From the NCBI RefSeq assembly GCF_000026545.1, contig NC_011601.1: a stretch of 64,000 nt of DNA; one strand, 5' to 3'. This document shows, piece after piece, positions 21,456 through 24,400 of the stretch (the first letter of the stretch is position 1; each line of letters begins with the position of its first letter). Made by a program: the position numbers. This stretch comes from Escherichia coli O127:H6 str. E2348/69. GTDB lineage: Bacteria > Pseudomonadota > Gammaproteobacteria > Enterobacterales > Enterobacteriaceae.

Positions 21456-24400
21456 TAAGAGAATTGCATGAGCAGTAACTTCAGACATCAACTATTGAGT
21501 CTGTCGTTACTGGTTGGTATAGCGGCCCCCTGGGCCGCTTTTGCTCAGGCACCAATCAGTAGTGTCGGCTCAGGCTCGGTCGAAGACCGCGTCACTCAAC
21601 TTGAGCGTATTTCTAATGCTCACAGCCAGCTTTTAACCCAACTCCAGCAACAACTCTCTGATAATCAATCCGATATTGATTCCCTGCGTGGTCAGATTCA
21701 GGAAAATCAGTATCAACTGAATCAGGTCGTGGAGCGGCAAAAGCAGATCCTGTTGCAGATCGACAGCCTCAGCAGCGGTGGTGCAGCGGCGCAATCAACC
21801 AGCGGCGATCAAAACGGTGTGGCGGCATCAACGACGCCGACAGCTGATGCTGGTACTGCGAATGCTGGCGCGCCGGTGAAAAGCGGTGATGCAAACACGG
21901 ATTACAATGCAGCTATTGCGCTGGTGCAGGATAAATCCCGCCAGGATGACGCAATGGTGGCATTTCAGAATTTCATCAAAAATTACCCTGATTCAACTTA
22001 CCTGCCAAACGCCAATTATTGGCTGGGTCAGTTAAACTACAACAAGGGTAAAAAAGATGATGCGGCGTATTATTTTGCTTCGGTAGTGAAAAACTATCCG
22101 AAGTCACCGAAGGCTGCAGATGCGATGTTTAAAGTCGGCGTCATCATGCAGGACAAAGGTGACACCGCAAAAGCGAAAGCCGTATACCAGCAGGTTATCA
22201 GTAAATACCCTGGTACTGATGGCGCTAAACAGGCGCAAAAACGTCTGAACGCTATGTAATGCATAACACACGACCAGAAGTCGCATTATTTCTGGTCGTG
22301 TCGTGCGAATCATAAGCAGTTGAGTGATCTACATCGAAATTTTTGTTGCGCTCAAGTCTGAAATCAGTAATATATGCCGCCGTTGCCACGGGATATCAAA
22401 CAAACCGAAGCAACGAAAAAGTGGGTCGTTAGCTCAGTTGGTAGAGCAGTTGACTTTTAATCAATTGGTCGCAGGTTCGAATCCTGCACGACCCACCACT
22501 AACATAGTTAGTTGTAGTATCCAGCGTAGTATCGGGTGATTAGCTCAGCTGGGAGAGCACCTCCCTTACAAGGAGGGGGTCGGCGGTTCGATCCCGTCAT
22601 CACCCACCACCGGGTCGTTAGCTCAGTTGGTAGAGCAGTTGACTTTTAATCAATTGGTCGCAGGTTCGAATCCTGCACGACCCACCACTAATGACGGTGG
22701 GTTCGGTGGAAGTAGTTTGTAGTATCCAGCGCAGTATCGGGTGATTAGCTCAGCTGGGAGAGCACCTCCCTTACAAGGAGGGGGTCGGCGGTTCGATCCC
22801 GTCATCACCCACCACTCGGGTCGTTAGCTCAGTTGGTAGAGCAGTTGACTTTTAATCAATTGGTCGCAGGTTCGAATCCTGCACGACCCACCAATTTTAA
22901 ACATTGGTTCCGAGTAGAAATCTTTCAGGTAACACCCGTATGGGTCGTTAGCTCAGTTGGTAGAGCAGTTGACTTTTAATCAATTGGTCGCAGGTTCGAA
23001 TCCTGCACGACCCACCATCCTGAATGATTAAAGCAGCATAATCCCGCAAGGGGTCGTTAGCTCAGTTGGTAGAGCAGTTGACTTTTAATCAATTGGTCGC
23101 AGGTTCGAATCCTGCACGACCCACCATCCTGAATGATTAAAGCAGCATAATCCCGCAAGGGGTCGTTAGCTCAGTTGGTAGAGCAGTTGACTTTTAATCA
23201 ATTGGTCGCAGGTTCGAATCCTGCACGACCCACCAATGTAAAAAAGCGCCCTAAAGGCACTTTTTTGCTATCTGCGATACTCAAAGATTCGAACCTGCAG
23301 CAGGTTTGAGTTGAGCGCAGCGAAACAACGGAGCCGCTCGCGGCGACGGCCCGAAGGGCAAGCGAAGCGAGTCATCCTGCACGACCCACCAATGCAAAAA
23401 AGCGCCCTAAAGGCGCTTTTTTGCTATTCAGGCATCTCTCAATTTCAATTCTTGACCCTGATGACATACTCCGCGTTTGCTGCGTAAACAACTCTACGTC
23501 GGAGGAATAAGACGCAAAGTGTGGCATTCGGCATCTCATACGTAATTCGAGTGACTTTTCCCCACCATTCGACTATCTTGTTTAGTATACAAAACAAATT
23601 ACGCCGATAATAGCGAATATCACGCTTAAGTCGGTTTTAACGTTAAGCCTGTAGAACGAGATGGTAAGATGAGCGTGATGTTTGATCCAGACACGGCGAT
23701 TTATCCTTTCCCCCCGAAGCCGACGCCGTTAAGCATTGATGAAAAAGCGTATTACCGCGAGAAGATAAAACGTCTACTAAAAGAACGTAATGCGGTGATG
23801 GTTGCCCACTACTATACCGATCCCGAAATTCAACAACTGGCAGAAGAAACCGGTGGCTGTATTTCTGATTCTCTGGAAATGGCGCGCTTCGGTGCAAAGC
23901 ATCCCGCTTCTACGTTGTTAGTCGCTGGGGTGAGATTTATGGGAGAAACCGCCAAAATTCTCAGTCCGGAAAAAACAATTCTGATGCCGACACTTCAGGC
24001 TGAATGTTCACTGGATCTCGGCTGCCCTGTTGAAGAATTTAACGCATTTTGCGATGCCCATCCCGATCGTACTGTCGTCGTCTACGCCAACACTTCTGCT
24101 GCGGTAAAAGCGCGTGCAGATTGGGTGGTAACTTCAAGCATTGCCGTCGAACTTATTGATCATCTGGATAGTTTGGGTGAAAAAATCATCTGGGCACCTG
24201 ACACACATCTGGGGCGTTACGTGCAAAAACAGACGGGCGCAGACATTTTATGCTGGCAGGGTGCCTGCATTGTGCATGATGAGTTTAAGACTCAGGCGTT
24301 AACCCGCTTGCAAGAAGAATACCCGGATGCTGCCATACTGGTGCATCCAGAATCACCGCAAGCTATTGTAGAGATGGCGGATGCGGTCGGTTCCACCAGT

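What the first reader, a model, noticed from the sequence alone, without database searches (positions are those of the whole stretch)
22423..23425. Expanded tRNA-Lys array with a degenerate tRNA remnant and duplicated terminator
The array holds six tRNA-Lys and two tRNA-Val genes, with three identical 109-bp Lys units in tandem from 22942; I recall five Lys and two Val in E. coli K-12. After the first terminator there is a remnant ending in the exact tRNA-Lys 3' end, preceded by a GC-rich insert and followed by a second terminator copy. This suggests unequal recombination or a past integration event at a tRNA 3' end.
Basis: partly seen in the sequence, partly recalled or inferred. Interest (0 to 1): 0.4.

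Follow-up and report, generated by a model that had tools for sequence, protein, structure and literature searches.

The report
Lysine tRNA operon with known repeat
This is the ordinary lysT tRNA operon of E. coli strain E2348/69, carrying one extra tandem tRNA-Lys gene; the "tRNA remnant" is a long-known tRNA-linked repeat that K-12 has in the same place.

Summary
The window (100% E. coli E2348/69) has six tRNA-Lys(UUU) and two tRNA-Val(UAC) genes between cpoB and nadA. It also has a perfect 109-bp tandem (2.7 copies) and a 54-nt direct repeat (tRNA 3' end plus terminator) flanking about 100 bp of GC-rich DNA.

The "remnant" is not a strain-specific scar. It is a tRNA-linked repeat (TLR; Rfam RtT, RF00391; 43.8 bits, E 1e-7). 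This family was first described in 1978, and 22 copies are catalogued in K-12. K-12 MG1655 has the same tRNA-Lys, terminator, TLR, terminator arrangement after lysQ, plus four internal TLRs that E2348/69 lacks. About 60% of 5,426 complete E. coli genomes carry the terminal unit, and so do Klebsiella, Pantoea and Mixta.

The locus is modular and highly polymorphic: 17 module orders in 21 genomes, with 3-6 Lys genes, 1-2 Val genes and 0-2 terminal units. This fits gain and loss by recombination between direct repeats. Six Lys genes is a rare but reproducible state: three E2348/69 assemblies and two other strains have it, and five is the mode.

Unequal recombination is supported. An integration event is not: there is no cargo, no phage match and no true-plasmid match. 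Verdict: already known, low interest.

The parts
22423..22498 (+). tRNA-Lys(UUU) gene 1 (lysT equivalent)
   Evidence: ARAGORN; Rfam tRNA 79.2 bits; identical to the K-12 gene
22534..22609 (+). tRNA-Val(UAC) gene 1 (valT equivalent)
22612..22687 (+). tRNA-Lys(UUU) gene 2 (lysW equivalent)
22739..22814 (+). tRNA-Val(UAC) gene 2 (valZ equivalent)
22818..22893 (+). tRNA-Lys(UUU) gene 3 (lysY equivalent)
22942..23235 (+). Perfect tandem of the 109-bp unit (76-nt tRNA-Lys + 33-nt spacer), 2.7 copies. It holds tRNA-Lys genes 4, 5 and 6 at 22942-23017, 23051-23126 and 23160-23235. One unit is extra relative to K-12 and to most E. coli.
   Evidence: TRF; ARAGORN; module comparison
23238..23268 (+). 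Terminator T1: hairpin plus U tract directly after the last tRNA-Lys. It carries a stem mismatch (GGCAC instead of GGCGC).
   Evidence: RNA fold -13.7 kcal/mol versus -19.1 for K-12 T1; alignment
23272..23391 (+). Terminal tRNA-linked repeat (TLR / RtT family). The Rfam match spans 23266-23391. The last 18 nt (23374-23391) copy the 3' end of tRNA-Lys including CCA.
   Evidence: Rfam RF00391 43.8 bits, E 1e-7, model 1-130. The orthologous K-12 copy scores 46.7 bits. PGAP annotates orthologues as 'RtT sRNA'.
23394..23424 (+). Terminator T2: second copy, with a perfect stem
   Evidence: RNA fold -21.1 kcal/mol, z -7.3
23218..23271 (+). Left copy of the 54-nt direct repeat (tRNA-Lys 3' end + T1). 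The right copy is 23374-23427 (TLR 3' end + T2). The repeat bounds the 156-bp unit.
   Evidence: the repeat finder (96% identity, spacing 156)

Best explanation
The region is the lysT-type polycistronic tRNA operon between cpoB and nadA in E. coli E2348/69.

(1) The sixth tRNA-Lys gene is one extra copy of a 109-bp unit (tRNA + 33-nt spacer). It most likely arose by unequal homologous recombination or replication slippage between identical, tandem tRNA-Lys genes. It raises tRNA-Lys(UUU) gene dosage at this locus by one.

(2) The 'degenerate tRNA remnant' is a member of the tRNA-linked repeat family (TLR; Rfam RtT). These are short GC-rich structured elements that follow tRNA or 5S rRNA genes and end in an 18-19-nt copy of the 3' end of the upstream gene.

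(3) This TLR lies between two copies of the operon's intrinsic terminator. It can therefore only be transcribed by read-through of T1, as shown experimentally for the rRNA-operon TLRs RrA/RrB/RrF. Its tRNA-like 3' end would then be trimmed by the tRNA 3'-end processing machinery.

(4) At the DNA level, the 54-nt direct repeat (tRNA end + terminator) around the TLR lets the 156-bp unit be deleted or multiplied by recombination. The 18-20-nt repeats around the internal TLRs do the same. This explains why E2348/69 lacks the four internal TLRs of K-12 but keeps the terminal one.

Shown here: the identity of the parts, homology to TLRs, the same arrangement in K-12 and other genera, and modular presence/absence. 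Inferred: the recombination mechanism, read-through transcription and processing. The cellular function of tRNA-operon TLRs is unknown in the literature.
For: Locus identity and gene content.

Exact 109-bp tandem.

Rfam RtT match over the full model. K-12 has five RtT matches in this operon, including the same terminal one flanked by two terminators.

The terminal 156-bp unit is present at full length in 3243 of 5426 E. coli genomes and is annotated 'RtT sRNA'.

Module map of 21 genomes, showing each repeat-bounded module independently present, absent or duplicated (terminal unit x0, x1, x2).

The tRNA-Lys, T, TLR, T arrangement, with 1-3 tandem units, occurs in Klebsiella sp., Pantoea sp. and Mixta sp..

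The TLR core sits next to Lys, Tyr, Arg, Pro and Ser tRNAs, always ending in the partner tRNA's 3' end.

Literature. TLRs were first described in 1978; 22 are known in K-12 at ten loci with 1-5 per locus; the 18-19 bp at the 3' end are identical to the upstream gene; rRNA TLRs between dual terminators are made by read-through (PMC8144298). The lysT operon is one ~1100-nt transcript whose terminator is removed by RNase P (PMC4176162). tRNA gene copy number varies by about one copy among E. coli strains (PMC4539685).
Against: The window's TLR scores 1.2 bits below Rfam's gathering threshold, and its predicted fold does not form the closing helix of the RtT model. It may therefore be a decaying copy rather than a working RNA.

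No expression data were available, so read-through of T1 and processing are inferences.

The exact frequency of the six-Lys state could not be counted. It rests on samples.

The recombination mechanism is inferred from end-states, not observed.
Confidence: 0.85

Rival explanations
1. The remnant is the scar (attR-like duplicate of the tRNA 3' end) of a phage or genomic island that once integrated into the last tRNA-Lys gene and was later almost entirely deleted.
For: The 18-nt duplicate of the tRNA 3' end flanks foreign-looking GC-rich DNA. 'Empty' sites exist in other strains.
Against: No integrase or any credible ORF lies between the repeats. The insert has no real phage match. Its plasmid-collection matches are eight replicons of 0.28-4.9 Mb, one 50-kb E. 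coli record and one partial hit in a 568-kb Klebsiella aerogenes record, all non-mobilizable. The insert is homologous to elements behind Tyr, Arg, Pro and Ser tRNAs, each ending in its own partner's 3' end. The arrangement is shared with K-12 and with other genera, and occurs as tandem multiples. The terminator is duplicated together with the tRNA end, which integration does not predict.
Confidence: 0.03
2. The six-Lys count is an assembly artefact: a collapsed or expanded perfect tandem repeat.
For: The repeat is perfect and 109 bp long, a classic source of miscounts in short-read assemblies.
Against: Three separate RefSeq complete assemblies of E2348/69 / O127:H6 are 100% identical over the whole region. 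Two unrelated strains (Dog168, muskdeer13-4) also have six. The whole array (about 300 bp) is shorter than a single Sanger or long read.
Confidence: 0.03
3. The terminal element is a non-functional relic. On this view a TLR copy (or a partial tRNA + terminator duplication) is no longer expressed or structured in this position, and persists only because deletion is slow.
For: It lies beyond a terminator. Its Rfam score is marginal and its closing helix is broken. About 40% of E. coli genomes have lost it without obvious consequence. The literature gives no known function for tRNA-operon TLRs.
Against: The same T-TLR-T layout is kept in Klebsiella, Pantoea and Mixta. The core hairpins are conserved across genera and across tRNA partners. 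rRNA TLRs in the same dual-terminator position are expressed and bind Hfq and CsrA. In E2348/69, T1 is weakened, which would favour read-through.
Confidence: 0.3

Closest known systems
[quoted passage not shown]
   Same: The flanking genes are the same (cpoB, nadA) and the tRNA sequences are identical. The terminal layout is the same: tRNA-Lys, terminator, TLR, terminator. Only a few base differences separate the two.
   Different: K-12 has five Lys genes and four additional internal ~100-bp TLRs, after lysT, lysW, lysY and lysZ. The window has six Lys genes, no internal TLRs, and a mismatch in the T1 stem.
RtT RNA / rttR repeats of the tyrT-tyrV operon (Egan & Landy 1978; Bosl & Kersten 1991; Rfam RF00391)
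   Same: The conserved GC-rich core is shared (…ACGRCCCGAAGGGCGA…). The element ends in a copy of the upstream tRNA's 3' end including CCA, and it occurs in tandem units.
   Different: The tyrT copies score 133-137 bits and form a 10-bp closing helix, GGGGAAGGAU/AUCCUUCCCC. The window's Lys-linked copy scores 43.8 bits and lacks that helix. It also follows a terminator instead of directly following the tRNA.
RrA/RrB/RrF, the TLRs between the dual terminators of rrnA, rrnB and rrnD (Stenum et al. 2021, PMC8144298)
   Same: These are also TLRs placed between two terminators at the end of a stable-RNA operon. An 18-nt copy of the upstream gene's 3' end is repeated about 150 bp downstream (compared).
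   Different: Their upstream gene is 5S rRNA. Those RNAs bind Hfq and CsrA, whereas the 19 tRNA-operon TLRs were predicted not to bind CsrA. Nothing is known about expression of the Lys copy.
Tandem tRNA gene arrays that vary in copy number between E. coli strains (e.g. glyV-glyX-glyY; McDonald et al. 2015, PMC4539685)
   Same: Identical tRNA genes lie in head-to-tail arrays, with differences of about one copy between strains.
   Different: Here the variation is unusually rich, because TLR modules vary as well as the tRNA units.

Membership tests
lysT-type tRNA operon of Enterobacteriaceae | Located between cpoB (ybgF) and nadA | tested here: met
   Annotated features in matching genomes and in K-12; nadA ORF starts at 23669
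lysT-type tRNA operon of Enterobacteriaceae | Order Lys-Val-Lys-Val-Lys-Lys-Lys, with tRNA-Lys(UUU) and tRNA-Val(UAC) genes identical to K-12 | tested here: met
   Same order plus one extra Lys. All eight genes match the K-12 sequences with 0 mismatches.
lysT-type tRNA operon of Enterobacteriaceae | Single polycistronic transcript processed by RNase P from the 3' end | not testable with these tools
   Known for K-12 (PMC4176162). No expression data for this strain.
tRNA-linked repeats (TLR; Rfam RtT RF00391) | Lies in a tRNA or rRNA operon, immediately downstream of a tRNA/rRNA gene | tested here: met
   Starts 36 nt after the last tRNA-Lys, separated only by T1
tRNA-linked repeats (TLR; Rfam RtT RF00391) | The 18-19 bp at its 3' end are identical to the 3' end of the upstream gene | tested here: met
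   ATCCTGCACGACCCACCA, 18/18 identical to the tRNA-Lys 3' end
tRNA-linked repeats (TLR; Rfam RtT RF00391) | Scores at or above the Rfam gathering threshold (45 bits) for RtT | tested here: not met
   43.8 bits, E 1e-7, full model 1-130. This is 1.2 bits short. The orthologous K-12 copy scores 46.7 bits, and orthologues in other strains are annotated RtT sRNA.
tRNA-linked repeats (TLR; Rfam RtT RF00391) | Positional orthology to a catalogued K-12 TLR | tested here: met
   Aligns base for base with the element after K-12 lysQ, between the same two terminators
tRNA-linked repeats (TLR; Rfam RtT RF00391) | Closing helix between a 5' strand and the tRNA-derived 3' strand (consensus structure of the RtT model) | tested here: not met
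   cmscan marks 4 of the 8 closing-helix pairs as non-standard. The MFE fold leaves the 3' end unpaired. The internal Lys TLRs of K-12 and the tyrT copies do form the helix.
Dual-terminator read-through sRNAs (RrA/RrB/RrF type) | Element sits between two intrinsic terminators at the end of a stable-RNA operon | tested here: met
   T1 at 23238-23268 and T2 at 23394-23424 both fold as terminator hairpins followed by U tracts
Dual-terminator read-through sRNAs (RrA/RrB/RrF type) | Transcribed by read-through of T1; binds Hfq and CsrA | not testable with these tools
   Needs RNA data. The literature predicts tRNA-operon TLRs do not bind CsrA.
Integration scar of a tRNA-targeting mobile element | Integrase or other cargo, or similarity to phage or plasmid DNA, between the duplicated tRNA ends | tested here: not met
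   No credible ORF. One 42-nt marginal phage hit. The plasmid-collection hits are eight replicons of 0.28-4.9 Mb, one 50-kb E. coli record and one partial hit in a 568-kb Klebsiella aerogenes record, all non-mobilizable.

The most novel reading that the evidence does not exclude
In E2348/69 the T1 terminator carries a stem mismatch (-13.7 versus about -19 to -21 kcal/mol). Read-through might then turn the terminal TLR into a strain-specifically expressed, tRNA-end-mimicking small RNA, analogous to RrA/B/F. The extra Lys gene and the loss of the four internal TLRs would then reflect selection on tRNA-Lys output or processing in this lineage, rather than neutral repeat turnover.
Probability: 0.08. 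Interest if true: 0.35.

Novelty: already known. Interest (0 to 1): 0.12.

Why it matters
It matters little as a discovery. The element family, its defining 3'-end duplication and its presence at this locus in K-12 have been documented since 1978-1999, and copy differences of about one tRNA gene between E. coli strains are known.

The practical value lies in annotation. The 'remnant' should be labelled as a TLR/RtT element; PGAP misses it in E2348/69 by 1.2 bits. It should not be read as evidence of a mobile-element insertion.

The cpoB-nadA interval is a strongly polymorphic, repeat-driven locus. It could serve as a typing marker, or as a natural system for studying short-repeat recombination and the still unknown role of TLRs.

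Tried and rejected
(1) I tried to count how many of the 5,426 genomes carry three or more 109-bp units, using BLAST coverage with long flanks and with a spacer-tRNA-spacer query. Overlapping pieces are merged into one place, so two-unit genomes also reach 100% coverage. No exact frequency could be obtained, and I fell back on samples.

(2) 'Spread' listings of the operon query fragment the operon wherever internal TLRs occur. Annotated Lys counts were therefore usable only for rows spanning cpoB to nadA.

(3) The consensus promoter/terminator scan found no promoter. It also missed both real terminators on the + strand, so folding was used instead.

(4) The first literature search for 'RtT' was swamped by Rett-syndrome papers. 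Bosl & Kersten 1991 (PMC329039) is not held and is cited only through PMC3318445 and PMC8144298.

(5) A cross-class test of whether the TLR 5' strand is complementary to its own partner tRNA's end used a 45-nt upstream window. The averages were higher than every cross-class value only for Lys-linked copies (7.9/10 versus 6.6-7.4). Arg-linked copies scored 8.6/10 on their own end but 8.5 on the Pro(UGG) end. Examples of short-type Lys and Arg TLRs pair 9/10. The test was uninformative for the long Tyr, Pro and Ser types, whose 5' strand lies further upstream.

(6) The weak Rfam hits to YrlA (44 bits versus gathering threshold 69), Plastid-ycf2 and sraL are side-effects of tRNA or terminator shape and were rejected.

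(7) An Arg-rich 58-aa TTG ORF across the TLR was considered by analogy with tpr in the tyrT repeats. It was rejected as a by-product of GC-rich CGN-type sequence.

Full report
**What is there**

The window is Escherichia coli E2348/69. A 1,501-bp query around the finding and a 5,501-bp query are both 100% identical to three RefSeq assemblies of that strain or serotype.

The finding lies between the stop codon of cpoB (22257-22259) and the start of nadA (23669). ARAGORN finds six tRNA-Lys(UUU) genes (22423, 22612, 22818, 22942, 23051, 23160) and two tRNA-Val(UAC) genes (22534, 22739). It finds no other tRNA in the 64 kb, and Rfam confirms all eight.

Tandem Repeats Finder reports a 109-bp period over 22942-23235 with 2.7 copies and 100% identity. 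This corresponds to tRNA-spacer-tRNA-spacer-tRNA.

After the last tRNA comes a hairpin plus U-tract terminator (T1, 23238-23268). About 100 nt of GC-rich sequence follow. Then come 18 nt identical to the tRNA-Lys 3' end (23374-23391) and a second terminator (T2, 23394-23424). The direct repeat is 54 nt at 96% identity with 156-bp spacing.

**Comparison with the reference**

Reading the K-12 sequence shows two things. First, K-12 has exactly the same terminal arrangement: lysQ, terminator, GC-rich element ending in the tRNA-Lys 3' end, then a second terminator. Second, K-12 carries four further ~100-bp elements, one after each of lysT, lysW, lysY and lysZ. Each ends in TCATCCTGCACGACCCACCA.

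**What the 'remnant' is**

Rfam matches 23266-23391 to RtT RNA (RF00391) over the whole model, at 43.8 bits and E 1e-7. This is just under the gathering score of 45. The K-12 orthologue scores 46.7 bits, and the four internal K-12 copies score 54-60 bits. The founding copies at tyrT-tyrV score 133-137 bits.

NCBI's annotation labels the orthologous element 'RtT sRNA' in many genomes. It is left blank in E2348/69 (H31).

The literature calls this family tRNA-linked repeats (TLRs). They were first seen at tyrT in 1978. K-12 has 22 of them at ten loci, with one to five per locus. All have 18-19 bp at their 3' end identical to the 3' end of the upstream tRNA or rRNA gene. No function is known for the tRNA-operon members, and an early claim about amino-acid starvation was withdrawn (PMC8144298; PMC3318445).

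Three rRNA-operon TLRs (RrA, RrB, RrF) sit between dual terminators. [quoted passage not shown] That is the same layout as here.

**Breadth of the family**

I scanned one genome per species for the conserved core GCAACGRCCCGWAGGGYGA. The hits are mostly in Enterobacterales, but also in Gilliamella and Photobacterium.

The nearest upstream tRNA was Lys(UUU), Tyr(GUA), Arg(ACG), Pro(UGG/CGG) or Ser(UGA). In 99 cases the element ends 30-40 nt after the core in an exact copy of at least 12 nt from that particular tRNA's 3' end.

The tRNA-Lys, T, TLR, T layout occurs with one to three tandem 156-bp units in Klebsiella sp. BIGb0407, Pantoea sp. IMH and Mixta sp. It is found at both lysT-like and valU-lysV-like operons. 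Internal Lys-linked TLRs occur in Citrobacter youngae and Escherichia sp. ESNIH1. The arrangement is therefore old and widespread, not a recent event in this strain.

**Structure**

The internal Lys TLRs of K-12 fold with a closing helix CGUG(A/U)AGGAU / AUCCUGCACG. The tyrT copies fold with GGGGAAGGAU / AUCCUUCCCC. Some of the pairs are kept by changes on both strands. Arg-linked short TLRs show CAGGGGGGAU / AUCCUCCCGG.

The window's terminal copy does not form this helix. cmscan flags half of the closing pairs as non-standard, and the minimum-energy fold leaves the tRNA-like 3' end single-stranded. It does keep the central hairpins. It is thus a somewhat degenerate member of the family.

**Population picture**

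The terminal 156-bp unit is present at full length in 3,243 of 5,426 complete E. coli genomes.

I fetched the interval from 20 other genomes. Most were taken at even steps down the similarity ranking. K-12 and Dog168 were added on purpose. I mapped the modules in each. Findings:

- There are 17 different module orders among 21 genomes.
- Each internal TLR is independently present or absent.
- The terminal unit is present 0, 1 or 2 times.
- Lys genes number 4, 5 or 6, and annotation rows also show 3 in some O157:H7 genomes.
- Val genes number 1 or 2.
- Five Lys genes is the mode (13 of the 20 fetched genomes).
- Six Lys genes were seen only in E2348/69, Dog168 and muskdeer13-4, and in none of the 18 systematically sampled genomes.

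Six is therefore a rare state. It is reproducible, because three assemblies of the strain agree.

An exact frequency could not be obtained, because the BLAST tool merges overlapping pieces.

B2-type genomes that lack the TLR keep a single terminator of the T2 type (ATGC…, followed by TTCAGG). This is what a deletion between the two 54-nt repeats would leave.

**Mechanism**

Every variable module is bounded by direct repeats:

- The 109-bp unit is bounded by 76-nt identical tRNA genes.
- The internal TLRs are bounded by 18-20 nt repeats.
- The terminator+TLR unit is bounded by 54-nt repeats.

Every module is found precisely present, absent or multiplied. The simplest explanation is unequal homologous recombination or replication slippage. 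This is an inference from end-states.

On expression, in K-12 the operon is one ~1,100-nt transcript that ends at the terminator after lysQ. That terminator is removed by RNase P (PMC4176162). The terminal TLR can therefore only be made by read-through.

In E2348/69, T1 has a C·A mismatch in its stem: -13.7 kcal/mol, against -19.1 for K-12 T1 and -21.1 for the window's T2. This could increase read-through, but that is speculation without RNA data.

**The integration idea**

Nothing supports an integration event.

- Only about 100 nt lie between the repeats.
- No credible ORF is present.
- There is one marginal 42-nt hit in 50,697 phage records.
- The plasmid-collection hits are eight replicons of 0.28-4.9 Mb, one 50-kb E. 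coli record and one partial hit in a 568-kb Klebsiella aerogenes record, all non-mobilizable.
- The terminator is duplicated along with the tRNA end.
- The same core follows five different tRNA species, each with a matched end.

Whether the TLR family as a whole originally arose from partial tRNA duplications or from some mobile ancestor cannot be decided here.

**Verdict**

The remnant is an already catalogued tRNA-linked repeat that K-12 has at the same position. The only strain-level peculiarities are one extra 109-bp tRNA-Lys unit, the absence of the four internal TLRs, and a weakened first terminator. This is already known biology and of low interest.

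Noticed in passing
window 22260-23668, compared with L001 and L003-L021: The cpoB-nadA interval is a strongly polymorphic modular locus, with 17 different module orders among 21 E. coli genomes. Lys genes number 4-6 (3 in some O157:H7 annotations) and Val genes 1-2. Four internal TLR sites are each present or absent, and the terminal terminator+TLR unit occurs x0, x1 or x2. It could serve as a typing marker.
   Followed up: partly
window 23238-23268 (T1) versus 23394-23424 (T2): The first terminator has a stem mismatch (GGCAC instead of GGCGC). Predicted stability drops to -13.7 kcal/mol, against -19.1 for K-12 T1 and -21.1 for T2. 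No other record is 99% or more identical over the 156-bp unit, so the allele may be specific to E2348/69.
   Followed up: partly
window 23266-23391; NZ_CP059840.2 3467322-3467477: RefSeq annotation of E2348/69 has no feature over the TLR, although orthologues in other strains are labelled 'RtT sRNA'. The Rfam score here (43.8) falls 1.2 bits under the gathering threshold. In the fetched genomes that carry internal TLRs (e.g. L005, L013, L014, L016), PGAP annotates none of them, although the equivalent K-12 copies score 54-60 bits.
   Followed up: yes
L022-L141 (genome-contig scan): The TLR core lies downstream of tRNA-Lys, Tyr, Arg, Pro and Ser genes in many Enterobacterales, and also in Gilliamella and Photobacterium. 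It always ends in an 18-22-nt copy of that partner tRNA's 3' end. In long-type copies a partner-specific sequence resembling the T-stem 5' strand and T-loop precedes the core, so the element looks like a tRNA 3' part with about 75 nt inserted in the T loop.
   Followed up: partly
L019 4868-5149; L036 about 1230-1700; L060 about 2050-2520: The 156-bp terminator+TLR unit occurs as two tandem copies in E. coli SCU-482. It occurs as three tandem copies in Klebsiella sp. BIGb0407 and Pantoea sp. IMH, echoing the 178-bp x 3.14 repeat at tyrT.
   Followed up: partly
window 22962-23102: There is a sub-threshold Rfam hit to YrlA (Y RNA-like; 44 bits against a gathering threshold of 69) spanning two adjacent tRNA-Lys genes. 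It is almost certainly a side-effect of the tRNA-like module in the YrlA model.
   Followed up: no
window 23311-23487 (+): A 58-aa TTG-initiated, arginine-rich ORF runs through the TLR and T2. It is reminiscent of the 'protamine-like' tpr ORF inside the tyrT repeat, and is probably a by-product of the GC-rich repeat rather than a gene.
   Followed up: no
literature (PMC3318445), not in the window: Skippington & Ragan 2012 list rttR (the tyrT TLR) as lost in E2348/69 and IAI39. This strain may therefore have shed TLRs at more than one tRNA operon. I did not check this in the genome.
   Followed up: no
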